Source: Minisyncoccota bacterium
Lineage (GTDB): Bacteria; Patescibacteriota; Minisyncoccia; Phycocordibacterales; UBA9973
Length of the DNA stretch: 64,000 nucleotides
Direction: 5' to 3'
Assembly: GCA_041659205.1 (NCBI GenBank)
Contig: JBAZYS010000001.1
Span: 123,166-187,165, forward strand
Below the pieces are notes generated by a model, which was not told where the DNA came from, did no database searches, and worked only from the letters and a program-made list of their open reading frames with translations. Shown piece by piece: positions 4,590-56,324 of this stretch. Position numbers and translations under genes: made by a program. Within the stretch, counting starts at the first letter, position 1, and each line of letters starts with the position of its first letter.

Positions 4590-4643
4590 TTATTTTTAAT
4601 TATTATTAACATTTATATTATTATCAGTAGGGAAATTAAATAC

Positions 4644-31076: not shown

Positions 31077-31472
31077 ATGCAAATAAATTTACAAGGAAAG
31101 GGAATGGAATTAACAGAAGCTATTAAAGATTATGTCTTAAAAAGAGTTACTAATTTAGATAAATTACTTTCTGGTATTGAGAAAAGGGGAGGAGAGGTAA
31201 ATGCAAATTTTGAAGTTGTTAAAACTACAAATCATCACAAAGCCGGTGAGATTTTTCACGCAAGTTGCAAAATTAATCTAGATGGTAAAAGTTTTTTTGG
31301 TGAAAGTGATCATGAAGATTTATATAGTGCAATTGATGAGGTGAAAGAAACCCTTTTTAGTGAAATAAGTAAAAGTAAAGACCGCAAACAAACACTTTTT
31401 AAACGTGGAGCCTCGAGTGTTAAGAAAATGTTAAAAGGTCTCTCCAATAGGAATCCTTTTACTTCTAAGTAG
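31077..31472 (+). CDS. hpf: Ribosome hibernation promoting factor / RaiA family protein.
   Basis: The N-terminus MQINLQGKGMELTEAIKDYV matches the HPF/YfiA consensus (M.I.I.G....T.A...YV), and the length is typical of a short HPF. Confidence 0.75.
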   Translation: MQINLQGKGMELTEAIKDYVLKRVTNLDKLLSGIEKRGGEVNANFEVVKTTNHHKAGEIFHASCKINLDGKSFFGESDHEDLYSAIDEVKETLFSEISKSKDRKQTLFKRGASSVKKMLKGLSNRNPFTSK

Positions 31473-32382
31473 AAGATCTTAGAAAGTCTTCATATTTTAT
31501 CTCTTTTTTACCTTCAGGTAATACTTTTTTTATTATGAATTGTCCGTTTTCTAATGTGGCATCCGTGATGATGATTCTCTTATCATTATGAAAAAAGAAA
31601 GTGCGGGGCCAAGCTGCATAAGCCCTAAATTTATTGTAATTTTTTATAGCATCAGCTTTTAAATCTATTAAACCATCTTCTTTTTTAATTTTTTTACAAA
31701 AGGTTGCTTTTTTTTCATCTTGGATTATTTCTTCGGTATCTCCATTTATATATACAGGTAAAGTTTTTACTAAAAGGTCACCACCCAACTTTATTAAACG
31801 TTTGCGTAATTCTATAGCTTTCTCGTCAGGGAAGATGTTTACTTTTTCTTCACTTATAATAGGACCAGAATCCATCTGGTATTCCATTTTTTGTATAGTA
31901 ATGCCTGTTTCTGTGTCACCGTTTAAAATGGCTGACTCTACAGGTGAGGCACCACGATACTTAGGAAGTAGAGAATAATGTATATTTATGGAGCCCAATT
32001 TAGGAATATTTAAAATATTTTCAGGTATTATTTTTCCATAAGCAACAACCAAGAAGAGCTGGATATTACTTTTATCACCACACATATTTTCCTGCTGGAA
32101 AATTGCTCTTCTCGCCTCGTCAGGCTGCGAAAGGGTTCTAAAAGCAATATCCAGCTCTTCTTTTGTGAGTTTCGCTGGTTGAATGTATGGAATATTATTT
32201 TTTTGAGCCCAGACCTTTACGGGCGGTGGGGTGATAATCATTTTGCGTCCTTGGGGTTTGTCAGGGGAGGTAACAATAAGAGATGGAATATATCCATTTT
32301 CCTTTAAAATTTCTAAAGTTTCCTCAGCTACGTCCGGTGTACCCCAAAATACAAAATTTAAATTATTGTTTTGTGTATCCAT
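31465..32382 (-). CDS. fmt: Methionyl-tRNA formyltransferase.
   Basis: VFWGTPDVA, HYSLLPKYRGASPV and the formyltransferase N- and C-domains are present. It is the last gene of the lepB-hisS-def-fmt operon. Confidence 0.9.
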   Translation of the reverse strand: MDTQNNNLNFVFWGTPDVAEETLEILKENGYIPSLIVTSPDKPQGRKMIITPPPVKVWAQKNNIPYIQPAKLTKEELDIAFRTLSQPDEARRAIFQQENMCGDKSNIQLFLVVAYGKIIPENILNIPKLGSINIHYSLLPKYRGASPVESAILNGDTETGITIQKMEYQMDSGPIISEEKVNIFPDEKAIELRKRLIKLGGDLLVKTLPVYINGDTEEIIQDEKKATFCKKIKKEDGLIDLKADAIKNYNKFRAYAAWPRTFFFHNDKRIIITDATLENGQFIIKKVLPEGKKEIKYEDFLRSST

Positions 32383-34290: not shown

Positions 34291-34899
34291 CTACTGCTGG
34301 ATTTCTGTTTGCTTATAATTACCTGGTAAAATATCTATTTTATTTATTGGTAGTAGGCGAATGAAAGCTCTTCCGGTGAGAAGATTCCTTTTAACAGCTC
34401 CCCAGTATCTAGAATCGGAGCTCGCTCCTCTGTTGTCACCCATGACGAAATATTCATCATTTTTTAATTCAAAGTGAGTTTCATTATTTGCGGGATTTTT
34501 TACGAAAGGTTGGTCGATTTTTAAAATTGTTGTTTTATCTTCTTTTGTTATTGTTACATCATTGCCTTTTATGTCCACTGTCTCATTCGGAAGACCGATA
34601 ATTCTTTTAATAAAGAATTTTGTTGTGTCGCCTGGATATCGGAAAACCACCACATCATCTCTTTTTGGATCACCTAATTTATAAGATACTTTATCTACAA
34701 TTAAATAATCTCCATTTGCAAACGTTGGTACCATCGAGCTTCCTGAAACAATAAATGGCTCAGCGATGAAAACACGTATTGGGACTACGACGATTAATGC
34801 TATAAATGCAAAGCGTACGAGCTCCCAAAACGATTGCATTTTTGTTTTTTCCTTTACTGATTGTATAGGAAAATCTATTTTTTCTTGTTCCATCGTCAT
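34291..34899 (-). CDS. lepB: Signal peptidase I.
   Basis: SGSSMVPTF (catalytic Ser), GDNRGASSDSRYWG and an N-terminal TM are present. A TGcTATACT box abuts the first ATG, so translation probably starts at the ATG at 34893 (leaderless). Confidence 0.85.
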   Translation of the reverse strand: MTMEQEKIDFPIQSVKEKTKMQSFWELVRFAFIALIVVVPIRVFIAEPFIVSGSSMVPTFANGDYLIVDKVSYKLGDPKRDDVVVFRYPGDTTKFFIKRIIGLPNETVDIKGNDVTITKEDKTTILKIDQPFVKNPANNETHFELKNDEYFVMGDNRGASSDSRYWGAVKRNLLTGRAFIRLLPINKIDILPGNYKQTEIQQ

Positions 34900-34982
34900 A
34901 GTATAGCAGATAAAATCCTTGACAGGTTACTTATATTTGTTTTCTAATAAATTAGAAAAATCTTTAAAGTATAATTTTTTTT

Positions 34983-35046
34983 GGTACGGATTTTTTGAAG
35001 CTTAAAAAATCCTGAAATTCTCGGCTCGTCAGCCTCGAAACCCCGC
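34983..35046 (+). repeat. Left copy of a 64-bp inverted-repeat element. It contains an internal palindrome, ggattttttgaagcttaaaaaatcc.
   Basis: It is the reverse complement of 44735..44798 with 63/64 identity. It lies in the divergent lepB/pth promoter region. Confidence 0.85.
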
Positions 35047-35087
35047 AAAAACTATACTTTTAAGATTTTTTATTAAATGCGATAGTG

Positions 35088-35096
35088 TGTTATTAT
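35088..35096 (+). promoter_or_regulatory. Extended -10 TGtTATTAT 7 nt upstream of the pth ATG (leaderless).
   Basis: The context is gtgtgtTATTATatgaaatATG. Confidence 0.45.
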
Positions 35097-35103
35097 ATGA
35101 AAT

Positions 35104-35643
35104 ATGAAATTAGTTGTTGGTTTAGGAAATCCTGGGAAAGAGTATGAGAATACAAGGCATAATGCTGGACGGATTTTAGTGGGCTTAATTGAGATGAAAT
35201 TCGAAAAAGAGGGTGAAAAAAAGAAAATCAAATTTCTTACCCCTGATACTTTTATGAATAATTCTGGTAAAGCTGTTGCTCCTCTGATAAAAGCGAAAAA
35301 AGATTTGAAAGAGTTGATTGTAGTTTACGATGATATTGATTTGCCACTCGGGAAGATAAAAATTTCTTTTAATCGTTCTTCGGGGGGACATAATGGCCTT
35401 GCCTCTGTTATTAAGTCTGTAAAGAGTGAAGAATTTTTAAGAATAAGAATAGGCATCACGCCAGCCACAGCAAATGGTAGATTGAAAAAACCGAGAGGGG
35501 AGAAAGATGTTTTGAAATTTTTGCTTGGTGAATTTAGAAAACCAGAACTAGAAATACTGAAGAAATTATCTAAAAAAGTCGCTGATGCTGTTGAAACTAT
35601 CTTTGCTGAAGGTAAAGATAAAGCAATGAGTTTGTATAATTAA
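35104..35643 (+). CDS. pth: Peptidyl-tRNA hydrolase.
   Basis: MKLVVGLGNPGKEYENTRHNAG is the canonical Pth N-terminus, with the catalytic His in HNAG. Confidence 0.9.
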   Translation: MKLVVGLGNPGKEYENTRHNAGRILVGLIEMKFEKEGEKKKIKFLTPDTFMNNSGKAVAPLIKAKKDLKELIVVYDDIDLPLGKIKISFNRSSGGHNGLASVIKSVKSEEFLRIRIGITPATANGRLKKPRGEKDVLKFLLGEFRKPELEILKKLSKKVADAVETIFAEGKDKAMSLYN

Positions 35644-35648
35644 TCCTA

Positions 35649-35676
35649 TTGACTTTTTTGTAATATTATATATAAT
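35649..35676 (+). promoter_or_regulatory. Canonical promoter TTGACT-16-TATAAT upstream of the SD-bearing small ORF at 35699.
   Basis: ttgact lies at 35649-35654 and tataat at 35671-35676. AAAGGAGG lies at 35686-35693, 5 nt before the ATG. Confidence 0.45.
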
Positions 35677-35698
35677 AATAAGTTGAAAGGAGGCTCCT

Positions 35699-35941
35699 AT
35701 GCTTCTATGGTTGATGGTCGTCGTGCAGATGATCGTGTGGGGATGGTTCTCGTTTAATGGAGGCAAGCTGAGTGATCGAGCGTTCTTGGTGTTCACTCTC
35801 GGCATGCTTCTTGGACAGCTTGGTGCTGGGGTCGAAACCTATCATCTGGCTGCCTGGAGGGCCTTCGTTATCCAAGTTTACTTTTTCCTCTTCACAGCAC
35901 TCGGCGGGATTCAGCGTATCCGTCAAATGCGTAAGAGTTGA
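35699..35941 (+). CDS. Small (80 aa) GC-rich membrane protein of unknown function. It has a canonical promoter and a strong SD, and it is compositionally atypical for the region.
   Basis: GC content is about 52% against about 33% for the neighbours. It has two or three hydrophobic helices (MLLWLMVVVQMIVWGWFSF.., FLVFTLGMLLGQLGAGV, FVIQVYFFLFTALGG). A terminator-like hairpin follows at about 35957-35990. Confidence 0.45.
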   Translation: MLLWLMVVVQMIVWGWFSFNGGKLSDRAFLVFTLGMLLGQLGAGVETYHLAAWRAFVIQVYFFLFTALGGIQRIRQMRKS

Positions 35942-36015
35942 ACATCCGCCCGTGCAAGGAGATCGCTCCGAGCCGGGCGATCTTTTTTTATATATACAGA
36001 TCAAGTAATATTTTT

Positions 36016-39000
36016 CTAAATCTCTTTTACTGCTTCGATGATGATACTTTTTTCGCCATTCTTGAGAGAGACCTTTCCAGAAAGGGCAATACATTTTTCA
36101 GCTACTAATATATCTACGCAATCTTTAAAGATAGAAGGGAAGCAGACCGCTTCGATGGAATCAGTTAAGTCAGCAATTTTTAGGAAAGCCATGCGTTCGT
36201 TATTTTTTGTTACAACTTGTCTTGTATTTTCTATTATTCCAGCGATAGTTACAGGCATGCCATTGCCGAGTTCTTCTTTGATTTTTTTAATATTTATATC
36301 TCGTTTTTCAAGTTTCTCGCGTATGCGGTCGAGTGGATGTCCTGAAATATAGAGGCCGAGAAGCTCTTTTTCCCAAAGCAATTTTTCTGCTTGGTTTGCA
36401 GCTTTTCCTATTTGGAGTTTGAATTCAGGAGCTTTAATTGTAGATATTCCACCGAAGAGAGAAACTTGGTTTTCATTTTGTTTAGAGTTCTCGTGATTGT
36501 ATTCGAGCATTCCTTCAAGGTTTTGAAGTAGAACTCCTCTATCTTCCCAATCATCCATACAGCCAGACTTAATTAAAGCATCCATTGATTTCTTATTTAA
36601 ATTTTTATGTTTGATTCTGTCTAGAAAATTTGTAATTGAGGTAAATTTTCCATTAAGTTTTCTTTCGGCAATGATTGAGTCAGAGATATCTGTTCCTAGA
36701 TTTTTAATAGTATAAAATCCAAATCTAATTTTTTCACTTTTATTTTTATTATTTATTTCTGTATCTTTTTCATGTGGAAGACAAGTAAAGCCCCCATAAC
36801 TTTCATTAATGTTTGGAGGGAGAATCGGAATATTCATTTTTTTACATTCTTCGATTATCTCAGAAATCTTTTCTACATCGCCTGACTCAGCGGTGAGAAT
36901 TGCTGTCATATACTCCACAGGATAATGGGCTTTCATATAAGCAGTATTGTAGGCGACTTTACCATATGAAGCGGCATGTGCTTTGTTGAAACCATAAGCC
37001 TGGAAAGGTTCGAAGAGTTTCCAGAGTTTTTCGGCGAATTCAGGTGTCTGGCCATTGGTGATTATGCCTTTAGTAAATTTCTCTCTTTGGGCAGCCATTT
37101 CTTTCGGAATTTTTTTACCGACAGCTTTACGGAATTTATCCGCTTCTTCCCAGTTGTATCCAGCTAGATCTATTGCACAAAATAGTAGATCATCTTGGTA
37201 AACGATAAGCCCATAAGATTCACCGAGGAATTTTTTCATTCTTGGGTCTAAATATTTTACGAGTCTTGGGTTTTGTTTGCGTTTAATATATTCAGGTATT
37301 GACTCCATCGGGCCTGGACGATAAAGAGCGACCATAGCATTGATGTCGTGAATAGAAGTAGGTTTTAGTTCTTTTAAGTATCTCGTCATTCCACTACCAT
37401 TCAATTGAAATAAACCTTCTGTTTGGCCATTCGCTAAGAGTTCGAAAGTTTTCTTATCGTCAAGGGGGATACGATCTATGTCTATGTTTACGTTGTAGAA
37501 TTTTTTAACTAAATTTATTGCGTCAGAAAGAATTGCTAAATTTCTGATACCTAGAAAATCGAATTTAAGTAATCCTGCGTCTTCGGCACTATACATGTCG
37601 TACTGAGTAATTATTTTCCCCCCCTTGGGGTCTAGTTGAGTCGGCATATATTCATAGATTGGTCTAGGAGCGATGACGACTCCAGCCGCATGGACAGAGA
37701 TGTGTCTAACACAGCCCTCGAGCTTTTTTGCCAGGTCTATTATTTCTCGTGTGTCTTTTTCTTTTTCATATGCATCCTTTAACTCTGGGACAATTTCCAT
37801 CGCATGGTCTATAGTCATTGGCATTCCTTGAGAACCAAGTGGTATCATCTTTGAGATTCTGTCTCCAATAGTGTATGGGTGAGCGAGCGCTCGAGCGACG
37901 TCACGTACAGCACCCTTGGCCATCATTGTTCCGAAAGTTCCAATCTGTGCAACCTTGTCTTCGCCGTATTTACTTTTTACATATTCAATCATTTCATCGC
38001 GTCTGTTGTCGGCATAGTCCATGTCGATATCAGGTGGCGAAGGACGAAATGGGTTTAAGAATCTTTCGAAGGGAAGTTTGTATTCAATAGGATTTATATT
38101 TGTAATTCCTAAAAGGTAAGTAACCATTGATCCTGCGACTGAGCCTCTAATGGCACTTAAAATTCCGTTTTCTTTAGCAAAACGCAGAAGGTCACCCACA
38201 ACCAAGAAATATGGAGAATATCCTTTATCACAAATAACTTTTAGCTCATATTCTACTCTTTCCTTGATTTCGGGAGTTTCTTTTAACCCGAGTCTTTCAA
38301 AACCTGCATATGCAAGTTCACGAAGTTTTTCGTCGGGAGTTTTTCCTCCTTCTATTTTGAAATCAGGAAAAACCCAGCGACCAAGTTCTATTTCCACATC
38401 ACACATATCCGCAATTTTTGCAGTATTGGTCACAGCTTCCGGAGTATCTTTAAAAAGTTCTTTTGCCTTTTTTGTATCGATGAATGAATAATCATCATCT
38501 CCGAAAGAGAATTTATTTTCGTCTTTGATGTCAGAATTTGTTTGGATAGCGAGCAGAGTTTCATGCGCTTTGTTGTCATCGACACAAGGGTAGTGTGAAT
38601 CAATTGTAGCAACGAGTGGAATATTAAATTTCTTTCCAAGTTTAATAATTTCTGTTCGGACTTCTTCATCACCTGGCACGGTGCTGTGTTTCATTATTTC
38701 TAAGAAATAATTTTCCTTACCGAAAATTTCTTGATGTTCTATTATTATTTTTTCAGCAGACTCGATATTTTTATTAGCTAGCGCCCGAGATAATTCTCCT
38801 CCGAGGCAGCCAGAGAGAGCGATGATTCCTTCACCGTATGTTTTCAATATTTCTTTATCCATTCGTGGTTTATAATAAAAACCTTCTAGATTAGAAATAG
38901 TTACGAGTCGCATTAGGTTTTTATAACCAGTTAGATTTTTTGCAAGTAGGGTAAGGTGATATCTTTTATTATCTATTCCTGGGTCTTTGTTGAGTCTGCT

Positions 39001-39231
39001 ACGATTTGCTACATATGCTTCCACTCCGATGATAGGTTTGATACCAGCTTTTTTGGCTAATTTATAAAACTCTATAGCTCCGTACATATTGCCATGGTCA
39101 GTGATGGCTATTGCCGGCATTTCGAATTTTTTGGCTAGGTCAACCAAATTTTCGAGCTTGGAAAGCCCATCCAATAGTGAGTAGTGGCTGTGGGTATGGA
39201 GATGTATGAATTTAGGTTCTTCTGCCGGCAT
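36016..39231 (-). CDS. dnaE: DNA polymerase III alpha subunit.
   Basis: The N-terminal PHP domain ([14 protein letters not shown]), the polymerase core and an OB-fold C-terminus are present, total 1071 aa. Confidence 0.9.
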
Positions 39232-39237
39232 TTTTCT

Positions 39238-39246
39238 ATAATAGCA
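39238..39246 (-). promoter_or_regulatory. Extended -10 TGcTATTAT 6 nt upstream of the dnaE ATG (leaderless).
   Basis: The reverse complement of 39238-39246 is tgcTATTAT, and the spacer is agaaaa. Confidence 0.5.
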
Positions 39247-39274
39247 TATTTTCTTTTGTTGTTTTATTTACTTT

Positions 39275-39283
39275 TGCTATAAT
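39275..39283 (+). promoter_or_regulatory. Extended -10 TGcTATAAT 6 nt upstream of the gap ATG (leaderless). It sits back-to-back with the dnaE promoter.
   Basis: The context is tgcTATAATgtaaatATG. Confidence 0.5.
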
Positions 39284-39289
39284 GTAAAT

Positions 39290-40333
39290 ATGAAAAAAAT
39301 ACGAGTTGGAATTAATGGTTTCGGCAGAATAGGAAGAGCTTTTTTAAAGATTGCTTATGAGCGTCCCGAAATTGAGGTGGTGGCAGTAAATGACCTTGGT
39401 GATATTGAGAACATGGCTTATTTGCTTAAATATGACACGGTTTACAGGCAGTGGAACCATGATATTAAAGTTGAAGGAGATGGTGTTGTCATTGATGGTA
39501 AAAAAGTAAAAGTTCTAGCGCAAAAAGATCCAACGCTTCTTCCTTGGAAAGATTTAGACATTGATGTGGTTGTAGAGTCCACTGGACTTTTTACTTCTTA
39601 TGACAAAGCGAAAGTTCACTTGGATGCTGGAGCAAAAAAAGTCGTTATCTCTGCACCCGCGAAAGACGGAGACCTGCCTGCGCAGGCAGGTGGAACGGTA
39701 TCAGGGGAAACAATCTTGATGGGCGTAAATGAAGAAAAGTTCGGCACTTGTGATATTTCTTCGAATGGATCTTGCACTACTAATGCTACTAGTCCGCTTA
39801 TGGCAATACTTCATGAGGCAATAGGAATTGAAAAAGCTATGTTGAATACAACTCATTCTTATACAGGAACTCAGGGTATCGTCGATGGGCCAAATAAAAA
39901 AGATTTTCGTGAAGGACGCGCAGCAGCGCAGAATCTTGTGCCTGCTTCGACGGGCGCTGCTATATCTGTTACCAAGGCAATATCTGAATTAGCTGGTAAA
40001 TTTGATGGAGTAGCCGTGAGAGTTCCTACTGTTTGCGGTTCAATAAATAATGTAACTTTTATTTCAAAGAGAGACACCACAGTTGAAGAGGTAAATGATA
40101 TATTACGAAAAGCAGCGAAAGATTCTCGTTGGAAAAATGTTTTTGATGTGGTGGAAGAACCAGTCGTTTCCAGTGACATGCTGGGCAACACTCATGCTTC
40201 AGTAGCTGACCTTCTTTTGACAAAGGTTATTGATGGAAATCTAGTAAGTGTAATGGCTTGGTATGACAACGAAATGGGGTATACTTATACTCTAGTAGAT
40301 CATGTTATTAAAACAGGAAATACGATAAAATAA
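39290..40333 (+). CDS. gap: Glyceraldehyde-3-phosphate dehydrogenase (type I).
   Basis: RVGINGFGRIGR (NAD binding) and SNGSCTTN (the active-site Cys region) are present. Confidence 0.9.
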   Translation: MKKIRVGINGFGRIGRAFLKIAYERPEIEVVAVNDLGDIENMAYLLKYDTVYRQWNHDIKVEGDGVVIDGKKVKVLAQKDPTLLPWKDLDIDVVVESTGLFTSYDKAKVHLDAGAKKVVISAPAKDGDLPAQAGGTVSGETILMGVNEEKFGTCDISSNGSCTTNATSPLMAILHEAIGIEKAMLNTTHSYTGTQGIVDGPNKKDFREGRAAAQNLVPASTGAAISVTKAISELAGKFDGVAVRVPTVCGSINNVTFISKRDTTVEEVNDILRKAAKDSRWKNVFDVVEEPVVSSDMLGNTHASVADLLLTKVIDGNLVSVMAWYDNEMGYTYTLVDHVIKTGNTIK

Positions 40334-40351
40334 AATTTTAAAACTGAAATT

Positions 40352-40386
40352 AAAAAAGCCGCAGAGTGAATCGTACGGCTTTTGGG
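40352..40386 (+). terminator. Hairpin with a T-run after gap.
   Basis: The hairpin is aaaaaagccg-(14 nt loop)-cggcttttg. Confidence 0.45.
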
Positions 40387-40403
40387 TGAAGCAGGGTCGC
40401 GTC

Positions 40404-40559
40404 CTACTTCGAGATTGTCTGCTCTTGTTTGGTGGGAGGTTTCGATGCTGGCATGTACTTCTTCGGGAAGTAGTACAGGAAAAGACATGCGGCGATAAAA
40501 AGGACCACCCCTACGAAAATGAGCTGCGCTTGAAATTCATCCTCTTCTTTAGTGTTCAT
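40404..40559 (-). CDS. Small (51 aa) single-TM peptide with a strong SD (AGGGAG 5 nt upstream). It is GC-richer than its surroundings and is not in the ORF track.
   Basis: The product is MNTKEEDEFQAQLIFVGVVLFIAACLFLYYFPKKYMPASKPPTKQEQTISK, read from the minus strand. The SD is rc of 40565-40570. Confidence 0.35.
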   Translation of the reverse strand: MNTKEEDEFQAQLIFVGVVLFIAACLFLYYFPKKYMPASKPPTKQEQTISK

Positions 40560-40702
40560 AGGAACTCCCTATTTTTATTGGTGAGACAAATGGTTCTCTT
40601 GGCGAGATTGCCAAGGAATCATATTTATCGAAGAATCGTTGCTATCCAAGTAAAATAGTACCGTTTTTTACAGATTTGTCAATACAAAAGATAAAGAAAT
40701 AT

Positions 40703-41506
40703 TTACTTCATTTCTCCTTTAAATACACACACAGCAGGACCAGTGAGCCAGATGTTTTCGTAAGTCCCATTTTTATTTTTTTCAAATTCTACCTTGAGGT
40801 CTCCTCCAGGCATTTTAATATGACAAATATTATCTTTCAAAATTCCCAAGTGGTGGGAAGCGACAGCTACAGAGCAAGCTCCTGTTCCACAAGCTAAAGT
40901 TTCATCTTCTACTCCGCGTTCATATGTACGGACATGAAAAACTCCATCCTTATGTTCTACATAATTTATGTTTACTCCTTTTGGATTTTTTCCATTGTCA
41001 CGAATTTTTTGTGCTTCTGTGCAGACAGGGTAATTTTCAATGTTTTCTATGTATTGGATATGGTGAGGGGTTGTGCCTGAATGTAAAAAGGTTAAATCGT
41101 TCTGGATACTAATCTCGGATACATCTTGCATTTTTAGCTTTATGAGTCCACTTTTTAATATTTCTGCTTCGTGTTCGCCGTCTATGGCAATGAATTTTAT
41201 TTTTTTAGGATTCCCGCCATGGCGAGCAGGTTTAATAATTTTTAAAATATTATTGGCAAAGTGCACAAGACAGCGTCCACCATTGCCGCACATGGGGCCC
41301 ATCGAACCATCATTATTTATAAAAACCATTTTGAAGTCATAACCTTTTTGTTTCTCTAGGAGTATTATACCATCAGCCCCCACACCAAAACGTCTATGGC
41401 ACAGTAGCTTTATTTTTTCCACATCATAAATATCAAACTTTTTATCACGATTATCTATCATGACAAAGTCATTTCCGGCACCATGATATTTGTAAAATTT
41501 AAGCAT
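40703..41506 (-). CDS. dapF: Diaminopimelate epimerase.
   Basis: HGAGNDFV, the two catalytic-Cys regions (MCGNGGRC and ACGTGACS) are present. A leaderless TATAAT box lies at 41513-41518 (rc). Confidence 0.85.
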   Translation of the reverse strand: MLKFYKYHGAGNDFVMIDNRDKKFDIYDVEKIKLLCHRRFGVGADGIILLEKQKGYDFKMVFINNDGSMGPMCGNGGRCLVHFANNILKIIKPARHGGNPKKIKFIAIDGEHEAEILKSGLIKLKMQDVSEISIQNDLTFLHSGTTPHHIQYIENIENYPVCTEAQKIRDNGKNPKGVNINYVEHKDGVFHVRTYERGVEDETLACGTGACSVAVASHHLGILKDNICHIKMPGGDLKVEFEKNKNGTYENIWLTGPAVCVFKGEMK

Positions 41507-41582
41507 GTTTTGATTATACCCCGTAGTAAAATTTTTCTCAAAATTTACTACTGGGCAGGCTATATTTATTCTTTTTTAAAAA

Positions 41583-41591
41583 TGTTATTAT
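41583..41591 (+). promoter_or_regulatory. Extended -10 TGtTATTAT 7 nt upstream of the rpiB ATG (leaderless).
   Basis: The context is tgtTATTATattagatATG. Confidence 0.45.
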
Positions 41592-41598
41592 ATTAGAT

Positions 41599-42081
41599 AT
41601 GAAGATATATATTGGCTCGGATCATGTAGGGTATGAACTAAAAGAAAAACTTAAAATATACTTTAGTGAGCTTGGTAATGCCGTAGAAGATAAAGGTGCT
41701 CTTAATTATGATGAAAATGATGATTATCCGGACTTTATAACTCCTGTAGCGCAAGCTGTTGCGGGGGAAGCTCTGAGCTTCGGAATTATATTGGGTGGTT
41801 CAGGTCAAGGCGAAGCAATGTGTGCTAATAGAGTGCATGGTGCACGAGCTGCTGTATTTTATGGAGAAGCCTTACCGAAGGACACTATCGATATAAAAGG
41901 TAAAAAAAGCATAGACCCTTTTGAAATTATAAAACTTGCTCGCATTCACAACAATGCAAATATCTTATCTTTAGCGGTGCGATTCTTGTCTGAAGATGAA
42001 ATAAAATTTGCGATAGAACTTTTTATGTCTACAAAATTTGAAGGTGAAGAAAGACACGTTCGAAGAATTAATAAATTTTAA
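41599..42081 (+). CDS. rpiB: Ribose-5-phosphate isomerase B (RpiB/LacAB family).
   Basis: The N-terminus MKIYIGSDHVGYELK and GGSGQGEAMCANRVHGARAA are present. Confidence 0.85.
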   Translation: MKIYIGSDHVGYELKEKLKIYFSELGNAVEDKGALNYDENDDYPDFITPVAQAVAGEALSFGIILGGSGQGEAMCANRVHGARAAVFYGEALPKDTIDIKGKKSIDPFEIIKLARIHNNANILSLAVRFLSEDEIKFAIELFMSTKFEGEERHVRRINKF

Positions 42082-42084
42082 TAT

Positions 42085-42783
42085 ATGGCTGAAATAACTC
42101 CAGCGATTTTAGAAAAAGATTATGGCGAAATAAAGAACAAGCTTACTTTTTTGCGTGGGCGAGTGAAAACCGTGCAGCTTGATATTTGTGACGGTATTTT
42201 TGTTGAAAATCAAACTTGGCCTTTTGCAACGGGCGGTTTTGATGACCATGATTTTGTTAAAATTTTAAATGAAGAAGAGGGTTTGCCATTTTGGACTGAT
42301 TTTGATTTTGAGTTTGATTTAATGGTAGCAGATGCTGTAGAAAATTTTGAAACTTATATGAAGCTCGGACCCAAAAGAATGATTTTTCATTTAAGCGCCC
42401 AGAAGGATTTGAAAGAATTCGAGGATTTCTTGGAAGGATTGGATATGTATATACGAGATAACGTGGAAATAGGGCTTGCTTTCAAACCTAGTGATGATTT
42501 GAGTATTGTTTCTAAATTCTCACATAAGGTTGATTTCTTGCAGTGTATGGGTTCTGACAAGATAGGTCACCAAGGTGAAGTATTTTCTATTAAAGCATTA
42601 GAAAATATAAAATATTTTAAAACAAATTTTCCTGGAATTGTAATGTCTGTAGATATAGGAATTAATTTAAAAAATGCGGAAGAGTTGCTTGATGCTGGTG
42701 TGGACAGGCTTACAGTAGGTTCTGGTATTTGGAAAAGTTCTGATCCGATTGACGCTTTAGAAAATTTTCAAAGCTTGGTATAG
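42085..42783 (+). CDS. Ribulose-phosphate 3-epimerase-like TIM-barrel protein (divergent).
   Basis: The pattern ITPAIL..D......VQLDICDGIFV.N.T..., FDLMV and a C-terminal VDIG...AGVDRLTVGSGIW parallels the RPE consensus. The sequence is divergent, so this is a family-level call only. Confidence 0.55.
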   Translation: MAEITPAILEKDYGEIKNKLTFLRGRVKTVQLDICDGIFVENQTWPFATGGFDDHDFVKILNEEEGLPFWTDFDFEFDLMVADAVENFETYMKLGPKRMIFHLSAQKDLKEFEDFLEGLDMYIRDNVEIGLAFKPSDDLSIVSKFSHKVDFLQCMGSDKIGHQGEVFSIKALENIKYFKTNFPGIVMSVDIGINLKNAEELLDAGVDRLTVGSGIWKSSDPIDALENFQSLV

Positions 42784-42864
42784 TATAATTAATACAATGC
42801 TTTTAACTGAAGATAACCCCGAAGGAAAGCAAAGCTTCCTACGGGGCAAGAATTTTAGAATATT

Positions 42865-43710
42865 ATGTCTTACTTAACAGATGAACAAATAAAAGATTTA
42901 GAGAAAAAAGCGAATGATATTCGTATATCTATTATTGAAATGCTTGTAGAAGCAAAGTCTGGACATACCGCAGGGCCACTCGGTATGGCAGATATTTTTA
43001 CACTTTTTTATTTCCACATTCTAAAACATGACCCAAAGAATCCATCTTGGGAAGAGCGTGACAGGTTAGTGCTTTCAAATGGACACATTTGTCCGGTACT
43101 TTATTCCACGATGGCGCATGCTGGATATTTTCCCGTAAAAGAATTAATGACTTTAAGAAAATTCGGCACTAGACTTCAAGGACATCCTCACAGAGAATAT
43201 TTGCCTTATGTTGAGAATTCTTCCGGGCCTCTGGGCTCTGGGCTTTCACAGGCTGTGGGTATGGCGCTCGCTGATAAAATGGATAAAAAAGAAAATGATA
43301 GATATATATATTGTTTTATGTCTGATGGAGAAATGGATGAAGGGAATACCTGGGAAGCAATAATGCTTGCGGGGAAACATAAATTACATAATTTGATTGC
43401 AGTTGTTGATAGAAACAATATTCAAATAGAGGGAGTCACCGAAGACATTATGCCCCTTGAACCTTTTCATGCAAAATGGAAATCTTTTAATTGGCATGTG
43501 ATAGAAGTTTCTGGACATGATTTTAGGTCATTAAATGAAGTAATAGAAGAAGCTCAAGCAGTCTATGAGAAGCCAACAGTTATCATTGCGCATACAATAC
43601 CAGGGAAAGGCGTAAAAGAATTTGAGAAAAATTATAAATGGCATGGTAAACCACCAACAAAAGAAGAAGGGAAAATGGCATTAAAAGAATTAAGAAATAA
43701 TAGATACTAA
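42865..43710 (+). CDS. Transketolase N-terminal (thiamine-diphosphate-binding) subunit of a split transketolase.
   Basis: GHTAGPLGMADIF, the ThDP motif GDGEMDEG (here SDGEMDEGNTWEA) and NNIQIEG are present. It is a separate gene from the C-terminal part. Confidence 0.85.
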   Translation: MSYLTDEQIKDLEKKANDIRISIIEMLVEAKSGHTAGPLGMADIFTLFYFHILKHDPKNPSWEERDRLVLSNGHICPVLYSTMAHAGYFPVKELMTLRKFGTRLQGHPHREYLPYVENSSGPLGSGLSQAVGMALADKMDKKENDRYIYCFMSDGEMDEGNTWEAIMLAGKHKLHNLIAVVDRNNIQIEGVTEDIMPLEPFHAKWKSFNWHVIEVSGHDFRSLNEVIEEAQAVYEKPTVIIAHTIPGKGVKEFEKNYKWHGKPPTKEEGKMALKELRNNRY

Positions 43711-43711
43711 A

Positions 43712-44722
43712 GTGTTAAATCCAAAATTAAAATTAAATCCAAAAATTTTCAACGATGCAGGAGAAAATGCATGCGAGCAAGTTCCGATCCGAAAAGGTTT
43801 CGGGCAAGGCTTACTTGCGGCCGGCGAGGCTGATGTGAATGTCGTAGGGCTTTGCGCTGATCTTACAGAAAGCACACAGATGAATTTATTTGCCGATAAA
43901 TTTCCAAATCGGTTTATTCAAGTTGGAGTGGCTGAGCAGAATCTAGCGACAGTTGCGTCCGGGATGGCTGCTATGGGGAAGATTCCATTCTGTTCTTCTT
44001 ATGCGATGTTTTCTCCAGGAAGAAATTGGGAACAAATAAGAACGACAATTGCTTATAATGATAGGAAAGTTGTAATCGTTGGTTCACATTCTGGTATTTC
44101 TGTAGGTCCTGATGGAGGTACACATCAAGCATTAGAAGATATTGCTCTTATGCGGGTAATTCCTAATATGGATGTCATTTCTCCTTGCGATGCGATAGAA
44201 GCGAAAAAGGCTACACTTGCGCTCGTGAAAACTACTCGGCCTGCTTACTTGCGTTTAGTTCGTGAGAAGACACCGATAATAACCACAGAGGAAACTCCTT
44301 TTGATATAAATAAAGCAGAAATTTATTGGATGCCAGATGTAGGATTTGCTCAAGTGGGAATAATTGCAACGGGTGGACTTTTACATCGAGCTATTCTTGC
44401 TGCAAAAGAACTTGAAGCTGAGGGTATAAAAAGTAAAGTAATGAACTTGGCTACCATCAAGCCCATAGATAGTGATGCAATAATTGCTCTCGCAAAAGAA
44501 ACTAAAGCAGTTGTGACAATAGAGGAACATCAAATAAATGGGGGTATGGGTTCGGCTGTGGCAGAAGTACTCGCACAAAATTTCTCAGTACCCATAGAAT
44601 TTATTGGAATAAAAGATAAATTTGGTCAGTCAGGCACACCCGATGAACTCATCGAACATTATGGTATGGGAAAAAATTCTATAAAAGAAGCAGTTAAAAA
44701 AGTGATAGCTAGAAAAATATAA
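43712..44722 (+). CDS. Transketolase C-terminal (pyrimidine-binding plus C-terminal domain) subunit of a split transketolase.
   Basis: FGQGLLAAGEAD...IQVGVAEQNLATVASGMAAMGKIPF is present. It starts 2 nt after the N-terminal subunit's stop. Confidence 0.85.
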   Translation: MLNPKLKLNPKIFNDAGENACEQVPIRKGFGQGLLAAGEADVNVVGLCADLTESTQMNLFADKFPNRFIQVGVAEQNLATVASGMAAMGKIPFCSSYAMFSPGRNWEQIRTTIAYNDRKVVIVGSHSGISVGPDGGTHQALEDIALMRVIPNMDVISPCDAIEAKKATLALVKTTRPAYLRLVREKTPIITTEETPFDINKAEIYWMPDVGFAQVGIIATGGLLHRAILAAKELEAEGIKSKVMNLATIKPIDSDAIIALAKETKAVVTIEEHQINGGMGSAVAEVLAQNFSVPIEFIGIKDKFGQSGTPDELIEHYGMGKNSIKEAVKKVIARKI

Positions 44723-44734
44723 AATAAGCTTTTT

Positions 44735-44798
44735 GAGGGGTTTCGAGGCTGACGAGCCGAGAATTTCAGGATTTTTTAAGCTTCAAAAAATCCGTACC
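44735..44798 (-). repeat. Right copy of the 64-bp inverted-repeat element, between convergent tktC and the PfkB kinase.
   Basis: It is the reverse complement of 34983..35046 with a single mismatch. The internal palindrome ggattttttaagcttcaaaaaatcc may also terminate both convergent genes. Confidence 0.85.
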
Positions 44799-44812
44799 GG
44801 TAAAAGTTTATT

Positions 44813-45808
44813 TTAGAGTTTTTCTGCTTTGTAGCTTTCAGGAGCCTTAGACAAATATTCCTCTAGTTTTTCTTTTGAAAGGAGTCCTTTTTGAGCACCA
44901 ATTTCTTGAACCACAGACATAGAATTTATGGGTGCCCAAGCGAAGGCTTCAAGTGGAGTTTTACCTAAAGCTAGTGCTGCAGTAAATGTGGAAGAAAAAG
45001 CATCTCCAGCCCCAGTACGGTCTAGAGGAGGAGCGATGTCAGGATATACTGGCATGTGATAGAGTTCATCATTCAAATACAGATAAGCACCATTTGGCCC
45101 GTCAGAAATTACAACTATTTTAGGACCTAAAGCTTGCATCCCTTTCGATAAAGTTAAGATGTCATTGCTGGGTATACCAAGAATCTTTTCAGCTTCTTCC
45201 ATATTACAGAAAAATATTTCGGTTCTACTATAAATGTCTTTTAATTTTTCTGCACCTAGTTTTATCTGGAAAGTTCCTGGTTGGAAAGCGAGCTTTGTTT
45301 CGGGATGATTTTTTAAATATTCTGCTATTTCTAAATGGTAATCTAGGGAATTTTCTGCGAGGGAACTCAAGTATATCCAGCCAACTTTTTCTATTTTTGG
45401 GAATTTATAATTAAATTTTTCATGTTTGATTAATATTGTACGGTCAACATTGTACCAGAGTACATAATGATAGTTTGTATTTTTATCTTTTTCGATTGTG
45501 ACATAGTCGGTGATGACATTGTCATTTTTTAAACTAACTATGCAATCTTCTCCATTTTTATCATTTCCGATATTTGTAATGACGGCGGAGCGCAGACCAA
45601 GTCTAGCAGCTGACACAGCAGCATTTGGACTATTTCCTACTGCGGGAACAATGGTGACAGATTCATAAGGAACCTTGTCTCCGAAACGGACACAAAGTTC
45701 ACGTGTGCCGTGGTCCAACATTTCTTCTGCATCTTTTAGTCGTATAAAAGCATCTATGACAATATCCCCAATTGCTAGGAAATCTATTTTATTTTCATTA
45801 GTAGTCAT
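44813..45808 (-). CDS. PfkB-family (ribokinase-like) carbohydrate kinase.
   Basis: The C-terminal GAGDAF motif and the N-terminal di-glycine region LAIGDIVIDAF are present. A leaderless TGcTACAAT box lies at 45815-45823 (rc). Confidence 0.8.
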   Translation of the reverse strand: MTTNENKIDFLAIGDIVIDAFIRLKDAEEMLDHGTRELCVRFGDKVPYESVTIVPAVGNSPNAAVSAARLGLRSAVITNIGNDKNGEDCIVSLKNDNVITDYVTIEKDKNTNYHYVLWYNVDRTILIKHEKFNYKFPKIEKVGWIYLSSLAENSLDYHLEIAEYLKNHPETKLAFQPGTFQIKLGAEKLKDIYSRTEIFFCNMEEAEKILGIPSNDILTLSKGMQALGPKIVVISDGPNGAYLYLNDELYHMPVYPDIAPPLDRTGAGDAFSSTFTAALALGKTPLEAFAWAPINSMSVVQEIGAQKGLLSKEKLEEYLSKAPESYKAEKL

Positions 45809-56051: not shown

Positions 56052-56324
56052 TTGATAAATAAAGAAATATCTTTTCGAGGATACAGATTTTTGATTCTGC
56101 GGAATCATGTCGCACAAGTCGTTCTGGTGCGACCAAAAAATTCGTACCCTAAAAGAGTATTTCTTTATTTATTGCCTAAAGATTGGAGAATAGAGGAGGA
56201 GCATACTGACAATGATGAGTACGCTGACTACTGCCCAGACTATTTGAATTCTCTTTTGATGTTTTTTATTGAAAAGCATACAATGAGCATAGCATACTAT
56301 GAGAAATTTTCAAGAAAAAAGTAG
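56052..56324 (+). CDS. Doubtful hypothetical ORF (90 aa). The region also contains two adjacent hairpins and an SD-preceded 11-codon mini-ORF.
   Basis: It has no motifs, and it overlaps the start of the next gene. Confidence 0.2.
   Translation: MINKEISFRGYRFLILRNHVAQVVLVRPKNSYPKRVFLYLLPKDWRIEEEHTDNDEYADYCPDYLNSLLMFFIEKHTMSIAYYEKFSRKK

What the first reader, a model, noticed from the sequence alone, without database searches (positions are those of the whole stretch)
34983..44798. A 64-bp inverted-repeat pair (63/64 identical) bracketing a 9.7 kb block of essential genes.
The copies at 34983-35046 and 44735-44798 are reverse complements of each other. Each carries an internal 25-bp palindrome (ggattttttgaagcttaaaaaatcc). 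Between them lie pth, a GC-rich small ORF, dnaE, gap, dapF, rpiB, the rpe-like gene and the split transketolase. Inverted repeats of this length and identity are substrates for recombination-mediated inversion, so this segment may flip between isolates or strains. Alternatively the element is a dispersed MITE/REP-like repeat that doubles as a divergent-promoter spacer in copy 1 and a bidirectional terminator in copy 2. No transposase is enclosed, so it is not a composite transposon.
Basis: seen in the sequence. Interest (0 to 1): 0.55.

Follow-up and report, generated by a model that had tools for sequence, protein, structure and literature searches.

The report
Conserved hairpin-tip repeat of Paceibacteria genomes
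The two inverted 64-base copies are real, but they are simply two members of a previously undescribed family of conserved, folded repeat elements that sit at the tips of long hairpins just after genes in many tiny "candidate phyla radiation" bacteria, and there is no sign that they flip the genes between them.

Summary
In detail: 34983-35046 and the reverse complement of 44735-44798 are 63/64 identical, and these are the only two such copies in the window. The inversion reading is not supported. Close relatives that lack the repeat have the same gene order and orientation at both junctions. The pair belongs to a dispersed family. Each copy is a nearly invariant ~62-nt core folding into a three-way junction: an A/U hairpin, a GC hairpin with conserved UC/UC bulges and a CGYC loop whose 4-bp stem covaries, and a short closing helix. 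The core caps a 20-30-bp, near-perfect stem that differs at every locus and starts at a stop codon. Copies favour gene 3' ends. Copy 1 is absent from the same spacer in two relatives. At copy 2's site a relative carries a sister element, and more distant relatives have plain terminator hairpins. A sister copy lies in frame inside the window's fmt gene. No Rfam family, phage, plasmid or paper matched. Best reading: a non-autonomous insertion element lodged in terminator hairpins. Its function and its mobilising factor are unknown.

The parts
34956..35066 (+). Family-A element, copy 1. The whole hairpin as matched by the covariance model; RNAfold pairs 34955-35071.
   Evidence: CM R1 scores 122.2 bits, E about 1e-28. 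The fold of 34940-35085 gives -32.3 kcal/mol, z = -4.1. The element is absent from the orthologous lepB|pth spacer of L115 and L118.
34983..35044 (+). Copy 1 conserved core: GGUAC, then P2 (GGAUUUUUU-GAAGCUU-AAAAAAUCC), UGAAA, P3 (UUC-UC-GGCU-CGUC-AGCC-UC-GAA), then ACCCC.
   Evidence: Sequence. Helices supported.
34955..34982 (+). Copy 1 left arm (GAAAAATCTTTAAAGTATAATTTTTTTT), complementary to 35045-35071.
   Evidence: own-arm complementarity score 17, against 8.3 on average for arms from different copies.
35045..35071 (+). Copy 1 right arm (GCAAAAACTATACTTTTAAGATTTTTT).
44715..44825 (-). Family-A element, copy 2. The whole hairpin lies between the stop codons of tktC (+) and the PfkB kinase (-). 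The sense strand is that of pfkB. U-rich runs follow the stem in both directions.
   Evidence: CM R1 scores 123.3 bits. Fold z = -3.5. Sequence. L121 has a sister element on an orthologous hairpin base, and L130 and L138 have plain terminator hairpins at this junction.
44737..44798 (-). Copy 2 conserved core, identical to the copy 1 core.
34291..34899 (-). lepB (signal peptidase I), divergent left neighbour of copy 1.
   Evidence: Pfam PF10502, E = 4e-43.
35104..35643 (+). pth (peptidyl-tRNA hydrolase), right neighbour of copy 1.
   Evidence: Pfam PF01195, E = 2e-47.
43712..44722 (+). Transketolase C-terminal half. Its 3' end abuts copy 2.
   Evidence: Pfam PF02779 and PF02780.
44813..45808 (-). 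PfkB-family sugar kinase. Its 3' end abuts copy 2, with the element's sense strand on the same strand.
   Evidence: Pfam PF00294, E = 3e-33.
32052..32158 (+). Sister ('family B') element with the same architecture: an AUUUUCC-UGCU-GGAAAAU hairpin, a CUC-GCCU-CGUC-AGGC hairpin and 29-nt arms. It lies in frame inside fmt (31465-32382, - strand).
   Evidence: CM R1 scores 27.8 bits, E about 5e-4. Inverted repeat I5. Fold z = -7.0 and -8.5. ORF and Pfam. Ortholog alignments.

Best explanation
The two copies are members of a dispersed family of small non-coding palindromic elements found in Paceibacteria/Nomurabacteria-type Patescibacteria. The conserved unit is about 80 nt: T5, a 2-3-nt spacer, GGUAC, an A/U hairpin, UGAAR, a GC hairpin with UC/UC bulges and a CGYC loop, ACCCC, a spacer, A5. 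It folds into a three-way junction. This unit caps a 20-30-bp, near-perfect stem that is specific to each locus, begins at or next to a stop codon, and often carries A/T tracts at its base. Shown here: the family exists, is conserved and structured, occurs several times per genome, is enriched at gene 3' ends, and is present or absent between close relatives. Inferred: the unit is a non-autonomous insertion element that lodges in the tips of resident bidirectional terminator hairpins, or builds such hairpins. It is tolerated or kept because the composite hairpin still works as a transcript 3'-end structure (terminator or 3' stabiliser). The invariant tip would be the recognition site for an unidentified trans-acting factor that mobilises or processes it. 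The inverted arrangement around the 9.7-kb block is incidental.
For: About 93 are genuine copies, almost all in Patescibacteria MAGs, covering at least 33 assemblies among the titles shown, with 5-8 or more copies in single genomes. The covariance model found about 12 further copies that break the search pattern. Structure: 98.4% of cells form standard pairs, against 92.2% in shuffles and 67% or less when partners are slid. Three base pairs of the GC stem change on both sides in 37-40 of 89 copies, with 0/500 shuffles reaching the covariation score. RNAalifold recovers the same helices. Copies outside the search pattern show UUC/GAA changed to UUU/AAA, and a re-registered UUGGC-UC-GC-CGUC-GC-UC-GCCAA stem that keeps the UC/UC bulge and CGUC loop. 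Arms: a copy's own arms score 18 against 8.3 for arms from different copies, and 92% exceed the 95th percentile of the cross-copy scores. Arms match for 20-30 nt and then diverge abruptly. Context: convergent versus divergent 24:7; tandem sense versus antisense 23:6 (p = 0.002); median distance from stop codon to GGTAC is 27 nt, about one arm length. Insertion: copy 1, arms included, is missing from the 97-nt lepB|pth spacer of L115 and from L118. Only 1 strong hit was found in 664 kb of relatives' DNA. Terminator link: at the orthologous pfkB|tktC junction, L130 and L138 carry plain long hairpins with A/T tracts, and L121 carries the sister element on an orthologous hairpin base. L017 reads AAAAGGAGGCCC...core...GGGCCTCCTTTT. 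Selection on the nucleic acid: the sister element inside fmt keeps its 54-nt core almost unchanged across orthologs with 76-79% protein identity, with a compensatory stem swap and co-varying arms.
Against: No transcript or termination data exist for these organisms. The generic terminator scan does not call these hairpins. With about 10 copies per genome, the element can mark only a minority of gene ends. Copy 1 sits between divergent genes, where a terminator has no obvious role and could hinder pth expression. In many tandem contexts the next gene starts within about 10-40 nt, so termination cannot be complete there. The strand bias weakens to 12:8 when only ORFs of 150 aa or more are counted. 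Mismatches in the arms show no G.U excess on either strand (15 versus 23), and transversions are as common as transitions. That argues the arms are kept as DNA palindromes and are not RNA-selected stems. No target-site duplication, no terminal repeats shared between copies and no transposase were found, so mobility rests on presence/absence and patchy distribution alone.
Confidence: 0.6

Rival explanations
1. Inversion substrate: homologous recombination between the two inverted 64-88-bp copies flips the 9.7-kb block between strains or within the population.
For: The two copies are inverted and 63/64 identical, which is near the minimum length for RecA-dependent exchange (general knowledge). 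Distant relatives (59% PfkB identity or less) have the pentose-phosphate block in the other orientation relative to pfkB (L132-134, L160, L167-172).
Against: Both junctions have the window's orientation in the closest relatives available (L115/L116, L118, L121, L146 and others). Those relatives lack the repeat, so the arrangement pre-dates it. The distant rearranged genomes also lack family-A copies in the stretches examined. The block encloses no recombinase. Copy pairs bracket unrelated housekeeping genes elsewhere, in both direct and inverted orientation.
Confidence: 0.04
2. A structured RNA in its own right. The three-way-junction core would be a functional RNA domain, for example a protein-binding module, a processing signal or an unrecognised ribozyme. 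It would be carried in mRNA 3' ends and perhaps released by RNase III cleavage of the long perfect stem. The hairpin would be a delivery scaffold, not a terminator.
For: Covariation in P3 and P2, with invariant unpaired bases (UGAAR, UC/UC, CGYC). Preference for the sense strand downstream of genes. The sister core inside fmt is conserved more strongly than the surrounding codons. Perfect duplexes of 20-30 bp are classic RNase III substrates, as shown for Correia/NEMIS elements (PMC10969869).
Against: There is no match to any of the 4227 Rfam families, even at E up to 10. Hand-threading onto the hammerhead core fails at G8/A9. Stem mismatches give no G.U signature for either strand. The core alone does not fold better than shuffled sequence (z about -1.2 to -1.3). 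Both hairpins are also near-palindromes that would form equally well in DNA.
Confidence: 0.2
3. A DNA-level element. The conserved tip would be a protein-binding or single-strand-hairpin site. Candidates include the substrate of a REP-associated (RAYT-like) or other hairpin-specific transposase, a nucleoid, gyrase or IHF-type site, or a DNA-uptake signal. Any RNA consequences would be side effects.
For: Arms behave as near-perfect DNA palindromes without an RNA wobble signature. The sequence itself, not only the pairing, of the A/U hairpin is almost invariant. Different element types occupy the same hairpin site in relatives, and another palindrome sits in the same spacer in L118, suggesting palindrome-targeted insertion. 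REP elements likewise sit at gene 3' ends (PMC10969869 and general knowledge).
Against: No transposase or RAYT was seen next to any copy examined, although whole genomes were not screened. Two copies 9.7 kb apart have opposite orientation, so orientation does not simply follow the replication direction. The gene-strand bias is more easily explained at the RNA level.
Confidence: 0.15

Closest known systems
REP/BIME elements of enterobacteria and pseudomonads (repetitive extragenic palindromes)
   Same: Short non-coding palindromic repeats present in several copies per genome. They are strictly extragenic (family A) and concentrated just after genes, including between convergent genes. They are transcribed as hairpins at mRNA 3' ends or between cistrons, and occur in either orientation.
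   Different: A REP is a single 20-40-nt imperfect hairpin with a conserved GTAG-type 5' tetranucleotide, present in hundreds of copies and linked to RAYT transposases. Here the conserved part is an asymmetric ~62-nt three-way junction on top of a locus-specific 20-30-bp stem, with about 10 copies per genome and no RAYT identified.
[quoted passage not shown]
   Same: A repeat family whose copies look like, and sit where, intrinsic terminators do (named in PMC10969869).
   Different: I did not examine SPRITE sequences. The present element has a large structured tip that ordinary terminator hairpins lack, and the generic terminator scan does not call it.
Rickettsia palindromic elements (RPE)
   Same: Palindromic ~100-150-bp repeats able to fold into long hairpins and inserted in frame into housekeeping genes, adding a peptide segment (PMC10969869). 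The sister element in fmt does exactly this.
   Different: A different phylum and an unrelated sequence. Family A itself was never found inside a gene in about 95 copies. Here the nucleotide core is conserved more strongly than the host codons.
Correia/NEMIS elements of Neisseria, and ERIC
   Same: Small non-autonomous repeats whose inverted repeats form long duplexes in transcripts. They are processed by RNase III or E and can act as terminators or modulators of neighbouring genes (PMC10969869).
   Different: Those have terminal inverted repeats of fixed sequence and a TA target duplication. Here the arms differ at every locus and no duplication is seen.

Membership tests
MITE (miniature inverted-repeat transposable element) | Small (50-500 bp), non-coding, several copies per genome | tested here: met
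   The ~110-130-nt hairpin has no ORF: the sense strand has stops in all three frames. Single assemblies hold 5-8 or more copies.
MITE (miniature inverted-repeat transposable element) | Terminal inverted repeats of the same sequence in all copies | tested here: not met
   Only the inner T5/A5 and spacer are shared. The 20-30-nt arms differ between paralogous copies of one genome. Arms from different copies score at background level, 8.3 against 18 for a copy's own arms.
MITE (miniature inverted-repeat transposable element) | Target-site duplication (direct repeat) flanking the element | tested here: not met
   No direct repeat appears at the points where the arms stop matching. The filled-versus-empty comparison with L115 is too diverged to define the boundaries.
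MITE (miniature inverted-repeat transposable element) | A related autonomous element or transposase in the same genomes | not tested
   Only 8-kb stretches around copies were available. Neighbouring genes checked are housekeeping. No whole-genome screen was possible.
REP/BIME | 20-40-nt imperfect palindrome with a conserved GTAG-like 5' tetranucleotide | tested here: not met
   The conserved unit is a ~62-nt three-helix junction. It starts with GGTAC, not GTAG.
REP/BIME | Extragenic, mostly at gene 3' ends or between cistrons | tested here: met
   Convergent:divergent 24:7. Median stop-to-core distance is 27 nt. None lies inside a gene.
REP/BIME | Associated RAYT (Y1 transposase) gene | not tested
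Rho-independent (intrinsic) terminator | Stable stem-loop immediately followed by a U-tract on the transcribed strand | tested here: inconclusive
   Stable long hairpins. T frequency is 0.64-0.67 at 22-27 nt beyond the core, with mirrored A-richness on the left. Copy 2 has UUUUU runs after the stem in both directions. However, the U-runs are often part of the stem, the 'loop' is a 60-nt junction, and the consensus scan does not call them.
Rho-independent (intrinsic) terminator | Demonstrated transcript 3' ends at the site | not testable with these tools
   No transcriptome data are available here.
Rickettsia palindromic elements (RPE-like behaviour) | Palindromic repeat inserted in frame in a protein-coding gene, adding a peptide | tested here: met
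   This applies to the sister element only. It sits in fmt at 32052-32158, in frame. It is present in many orthologs, absent in short ones (P0092, P0111) and partly deleted in P0100 and P0042. Family A itself does not do this.
Programmed invertible segment | Inverted repeats flanking a segment, a recombinase nearby, and both orientations observed | tested here: not met
   The block holds no recombinase. Only one orientation is seen in all close relatives. Population reads could not be tested.
Any Rfam 15 RNA family (including hammerhead, twister, pistol, hatchet) | Covariance-model score at or above the family's gathering threshold | tested here: not met
   No hit at either copy at the gathering threshold. 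At E up to 10 there are only noise matches far below threshold, such as miRNA precursors and Lnt in the flank.

The most novel reading that the evidence does not exclude
The three-way-junction tip and its sister family form a new class of selected nucleic-acid module specific to Paceibacteria. It colonises the tips of terminator hairpins and even coding sequence (fmt). It is held under stronger constraint than the host codons. It depends on an undiscovered trans-acting machinery, such as a hairpin-tip-targeting insertion system or a new RNA-processing or ribozyme activity. That machinery would also generate or maintain the perfect, locus-specific inverted arms.
Probability: 0.2. Interest if true: 0.8.

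Novelty: new variant of a known kind. Interest (0 to 1): 0.6.

Why it matters
Patescibacteria (the candidate phyla radiation) have tiny genomes, cannot be cultured alone, and almost nothing is known about their gene-boundary signals, non-coding RNAs or small mobile elements. This finding defines a conserved, structured, multi-copy element with a covariance model, about 100 instances, clear anatomy and a sister family inside an essential gene. It is a concrete handle for mapping transcript ends, for searching for the protein or RNA that recognises the tip, and for annotating these genomes. The locus-specific yet perfect arms also raise a mechanistic question that ordinary MITE or REP models do not answer: how does a conserved tip come to sit on a different perfect palindrome at each site? 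For the window itself the practical message is modest: the 9.7-kb block of housekeeping genes is not a switch.

Tried and rejected
1. Known RNA families. The Rfam gathering search of the whole window and the permissive searches of both copies gave nothing relevant.
2. Hammerhead ribozyme. The ...CUGAAAUUC... and ...CUCGAAAC... strings look hammerhead-like. Threaded on the three-way junction, however, positions G8/A9 are A/U, and GAA is paired with UUC. Rejected by inspection, consistent with Rfam.
3. Folding significance of the core alone. Not significant (z about -1.2 to -1.3). Only the full hairpin is (z -3.5 to -4.1).
4. Strand assignment from G.U versus A.C mismatches. The first count was contaminated by the conserved internal loop. 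Restricted to the outer arms, there is no bias, so the test is inconclusive.
5. Exact-protein look-ups of the source contig failed for pth, pfkB and even the 100%-identical Fmt P0001. Strain-level comparison of the source genome was therefore impossible.
6. Composite transposon or cargo idea. Genes between copy pairs are housekeeping.
7. Family A inside genes. The single open frame through a copy (L045) is upstream read-through ahead of the real start.
8. Phage or plasmid origin. No viral-contig match to the core (the one hit, L001, lacks the A/U hairpin). No BLAST hit in phage or plasmid collections.
9. Target-site duplication. None seen.
10. Literature. Four searches for Patescibacteria, CPR, Parcubacteria or Nomurabacteria repeats, hairpins, terminators or MITEs found nothing relevant.

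Full report
OBSERVATION. Window 34983-35046 (+) and the reverse complement of 44735-44798 agree at 63 of 64 bases. The repeat finder extends the pair to 88 nt at 90% identity (I1). Searches with either half of the repeat, allowing three mismatches, find only these two copies in the 64-kb window, against none expected in shuffles. The internal 25-mer is an imperfect palindrome, not a perfect one: 9-bp arms around a 7-nt centre. Copy 1 lies between the divergent genes lepB (34291-34899, -) and pth (35104-35643, +). Copy 2 lies between the convergent transketolase C-half (43712-44722, +) and a PfkB-family kinase (44813-45808, -).

A DISPERSED, CONSERVED FAMILY, NOT A PRIVATE PAIR. I scanned one genome per species with a pattern that fixed only the junction bases (TCCTGAAATTCTC, 8-16 free bases, TCGAAAC). 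About 93 of these carry the whole element. The others are chance matches in unrelated phyla and lack the A/U hairpin. The genuine copies come from Patescibacteria MAGs labelled Nomurabacteria, Paceibacterota, Vogelbacteria or 'Saccharibacteria'. They cover at least 33 different assemblies among the titles shown, with five to eight or more copies in single genomes (MFTY01, JBAYFP01, JBAZVG01, CAIMAO01). The parts I had not constrained (GGTAC, GGATTTTTTGAAGCTTAAAAAA, CCCC) are nearly invariant. A covariance model built from 89 copies (R1) scores the two window copies at 122-123 bits. It also finds about a dozen further full copies in the fetched loci that violate my pattern. Counting copies beyond the one that brought each locus in, and the window's 2 in 64 kb, gives a density of roughly one per 30-80 kb, or about ten per genome. 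No copy was found in viral contigs, phage records or plasmids.

ANATOMY. Read in the orientation GGUAC...ACCCC, the core has three helices. P1 is the closing helix GGU/ACC. P2 is GGAUUUUUU-GAAGCUU-AAAAAAUCC. Then comes the unpaired UGAAR. P3 is UUC-UC-NNNN-CGYC-NNNN-UC-GAA. On the 89-copy alignment, 98.4% of cells form standard pairs, against 92.2% after shuffling and 67% or less when partners are slid by one to three columns. No shuffle out of 500 reaches the observed covariation score. The signal comes mainly from the 4-bp stem of P3, where three pairs change on both sides in 37-40 of 89 copies: GGCU/AGCC, GCGC/GCGC, GCCU/AGGC, GCAC/GUGC, GACU/AGUC, GGUU/AACC, GCUC/GAGC. P2 shows U-A to C-G in four copies and U-A to A-U in one. 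RNAalifold recovers the same helices on its own. Columns 55-67 and 80-86 were fixed by my search pattern, so their invariance in that alignment means nothing. The copies found only by the model show what happens there: UGAAA becomes UGAAG; UUC/GAA becomes UUU/AAA; and two copies re-register the stem as UUGGC-UC-GC-CGUC-GC-UC-GCCAA while keeping the UC/UC bulge and CGUC loop. The conserved features therefore include unpaired bases, which is what one expects of a recognition surface.

THE CORE CAPS A LONG, LOCUS-SPECIFIC HAIRPIN. In every copy the core is flanked by T5 on the left and A5 on the right, separated from the core by a small internal loop. Beyond that, the left flank and the reverse complement of the right flank are identical for about 20-30 nt and then diverge abruptly. 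A copy's own arms score 18 on average, against 8.3 for arms taken from different copies, and 92% of copies exceed the 95th percentile of the cross-copy scores. Paralogous copies within one genome have different arms, although subfamilies share some inner arm sequence. Outside the conserved inner 10 nt, the arms are 95% paired and more than half are perfect. The full hairpins fold well beyond shuffled sequence (window copies z = -4.1 and -3.5). The core alone does not (z about -1.2 to -1.3). The bases of the hairpins are A-rich on the left and T-rich on the right (T frequency 0.64-0.67 at 22-27 nt from the core). Some look like textbook bidirectional terminators with a large insert, for example L017: AAAAGGAGGCCC...core...GGGCCTCCTTTT. 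At copy 2, U-rich runs follow the stem in both transcription directions.

WHERE COPIES SIT. Using simple ORF calls, convergent gene pairs outnumber divergent ones 24:7. In tandem contexts the element's sense strand matches the genes' strand 23:6 (p = 0.002). The median distance from the upstream stop codon to GGTAC is 27 nt, about one arm length, so the hairpin starts at the stop codon. The tandem bias is sensitive to gene calling: 17:5 with stricter distances, and 12:8 (not significant) if only ORFs of 150 aa or more are counted. No family-A copy lies inside a real gene. The sense strand has stops in all three frames. Window copy 2 is a typical member. Copy 1, between divergent genes, belongs to the rare class. 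I tried to assign the folded strand from wobble pairs, since a transition mismatch is G.U on one strand and A.C on the other. In the locus-specific arms the counts are 15 versus 23 (not significant), and transversions are as frequent as transitions (the first attempt was contaminated by the conserved internal loop). The arms therefore look like DNA palindromes kept near-perfect by origin or by a DNA-level process, not stems shaped by RNA-level selection. This is the main weakness of a purely RNA-centred reading.

PRESENCE/ABSENCE, AND THE LINK TO TERMINATOR HAIRPINS. The window's Fmt protein has a 100% match (P0001) on a 239-kb Paceibacterota contig, but that contig could not be fetched. Relatives could be. 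In L115/L116 (Fmt 79% identical) and L118 (76%) the order fmt-def-hisS-lepB | pth-dnaE-gap is the same as in the window. The model finds no family-A copy in them. The lepB|pth spacer is 97 nt in L115 against 204 nt in the window. Both share an upstream TCCTTGAC...TTGTTTTCTAAT block and the pth start, and the whole hairpin, arms included, is missing from L115. L118 has instead a perfect 50-nt GC-rich palindrome at that spot. For junction 2, I fetched 59 loci encoding PfkB relatives. L121 (79-81% identical) and ten others keep pfkB convergent with tktC-tktN-rpe-rpiB-gap. Only distant relatives (59% identity or less) have the block co-directional with pfkB. In 664 kb of these loci the model finds one strong copy (L139) and a 30-bit hit in L121 lying exactly at the pfkB|tktC junction. 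That hit is a sister element: ACACAU-AAAAAUC-UGCU-GAUUUUUU...CUC-GGCU-CGUC-AGCC-UGCG. It faces the other way, on a hairpin base (AAAAATATAAAATA...TATTTTAT) that is orthologous to the window's. L130 and L138 carry plain 18-20-bp perfect hairpins with A/T tracts at the same junction. The simplest reading is that long A/T-flanked hairpins are the normal terminators of this clade, and that the conserved cores are modules that come to occupy their tips.

INVERSION. Both junctions have the window's orientation in every close relative available. Those relatives lack the repeat, so the window shows the ancestral arrangement. The block contains pth, a small ORF without Pfam match, dnaE, gap, dapF, rpiB, rpe and the split transketolase, and no recombinase. 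In other genomes, pairs of copies in direct or inverted orientation bracket a ComM/YifB-like ATPase, methionine aminopeptidase, YidC and Jag. Bracketing is therefore what one expects from an element that marks gene ends. Sixty-four to 88 bp of identity could in principle support rare RecA-mediated inversion (general knowledge), and I could not examine reads, so I leave this at about 4%.

A SISTER ELEMENT INSIDE fmt. The model's third-best window hit (32052-32158, 27.8 bits) coincides with inverted repeat I5 (29-nt arms, 54 nt between them) and folds with z = -7.0 and -8.5. It has the family architecture: an AUUUUCC-UGCU-GGAAAAU hairpin and a CUC-GCCU-CGUC-AGGC hairpin. It lies in frame inside methionyl-tRNA formyltransferase (31465-32382, -; Pfam PF00551 and PF02911). 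In the alignment of 21 orthologs, short proteins (P0092, P0111) lack about 25 residues that P0001, P0002, P0003, P0005, P0019, P0071 and P0041 carry. P0100 and P0042 have partial versions. The inserted peptides (TLSQPDEARRA, SIAQADEPSIA, TLGRSDGDGQRK) are translations of the GC hairpin. At the DNA level, the 54-nt core is almost identical in the window, L115 and L118, although the proteins are only 76-79% identical. Among its few differences is a compensatory stem swap (GCCT...AGGC versus GGCT...AGCC). The arms also co-vary, changing amino acids on both sides (GAGCTGG/CCAGCTC versus AATGTCG/CGACATT). This is the behaviour described for Rickettsia palindromic elements (PMC10969869). It also shows that the nucleic-acid fold is maintained, by selection or by a palindrome-correcting mutational process. 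Similar sister copies are intergenic in L013, L049, L060, L106 and L109.

WHAT IT MOST LIKELY IS. Shown: a conserved, structured, multi-copy, mostly 3'-end-associated element with presence/absence polymorphism and a patchy distribution across Paceibacteria. Inferred: it is a non-autonomous insertion element that occupies or builds terminator hairpins. It is retained because the composite hairpin still serves as a transcript 3'-end structure. Its invariant tip is recognised by an unknown factor. I give this 0.6. The rivals are a self-standing functional RNA released from 3' UTRs (0.2), a purely DNA-level site such as a hairpin-transposase substrate (0.15) and the inversion switch (0.04). Against the terminator role: about ten copies per genome is a small minority of gene ends; many downstream genes start within tens of bases of the hairpin; copy 1 sits between divergent genes; and the consensus terminator scan does not recognise these structures.

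COMPARISON WITH KNOWN FAMILIES. It works most like REP/BIME, SPRITE and Correia-type repeats, and its sister behaves like an RPE. It fails the defining tests for membership. There are no terminal repeats common to all copies and no target duplication, which rules out MITE. There is no 20-40-nt GTAG palindrome, which rules out REP. No Rfam family matches. The combination of an asymmetric, covarying three-way-junction tip with a different perfect palindrome at every locus is not something I can place in a described family. Four literature searches found nothing on it. I therefore rate it a new variant of a known kind, the bacterial interspersed palindromic repeats, with interest 0.6.

Noticed in passing
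window 32052-32158 (inside fmt, 31465-32382, - strand): A diverged sister of the repeat is inserted in frame in methionyl-tRNA formyltransferase. It has 29-nt arms and a 54-nt core. It is present in many orthologs, absent or partly deleted in others. Its core is more conserved than the surrounding codons, and its arms co-vary within coding sequence. This is RPE-like behaviour.
   Followed up: partly
window 56056-56175: Another very stable long hairpin (z = -7.3) lies directly after lepA (54245-56050, +) and before a DivIC-like gene. It enters with AGGGUAC like family A, but its interior is different: two GC-containing hairpins. It may be a third family of tip modules.
   Followed up: partly
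window 14533-14608: A weak model hit (24 bits) on an A/T-armed hairpin lies just after the Orn/DAP decarboxylase-like gene (13130-14521, +) and overlaps the called start of a DUF192 gene. Its fold is not significant (z = -1.6).
   Followed up: partly
L118 7440-7500 (lepB|pth spacer of a relative): A perfect 50-nt GC-rich palindrome, TTCCCCCACACCAGGTGAAGGGGAATTCCCCTTCACCTGGTGTGGGGGAA, occupies the site where the window has copy 1. It is flanked by what looks like a 6-bp direct repeat, AAAATG. This is a different palindromic insertion at the same spot.
   Followed up: no
L146 8600-9110 (pfkB-tktC spacer of a relative): Several GC-rich palindromes of the type CCCCTCTCCTT(G/C)T(G/C)AAGGAGAGGGG are repeated in one spacer. 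This is yet another palindromic repeat family in these genomes.
   Followed up: no
L132-L134, L160, L167-L172 versus L121, L130, L135-L138 and others: In distant relatives (PfkB 59% identical or less) the gap-rpiB-rpe-tktN-tktC block is co-directional with pfkB instead of convergent. A rearrangement happened deep in the clade, with no family-A copies in the stretches examined.
   Followed up: partly
window 35956-35987 (+): A conventional terminator-like hairpin (13 pairs, followed by TTTTTTT) lies in the GC-richer stretch between pth and dnaE, where two overlapping small ORFs (35699-35941 + and 35705-36094 -) have no Pfam match.
   Followed up: no
window 35085-35106, and L115 7465-7490 (- strand): A TATTAT -10-like hexamer lies 7 nt upstream of the pth ATG in the window, and in a similar position in L115. 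lepB likewise has TATACT/TATAAT-like hexamers just upstream of its ATG. These genes may be transcribed as leaderless mRNAs, which would place copy 1 upstream of both promoters and outside any transcript. This rests on inspection only.
   Followed up: no
window 369-12993 and 28896-30495: There are extensive in-gene tandem repeats. About 126-nt units appear in two regions (about 370-3450 and 9700-12000), and 174-nt units at 29500-30495 inside a 1112-aa protein. The orthologous large proteins in L115 and L118 hit Vgb_lyase, NHL, SBBP and PG_binding_1 families.
   Followed up: no
source genome (protein P0001): The 100%-identical Fmt is on record from NCBI and JGI on a 239,165-bp Paceibacterota contig. 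Yet exact-protein look-ups for it, pth and pfkB all returned 'not on record', so the source contig could not be retrieved.
   Followed up: yes
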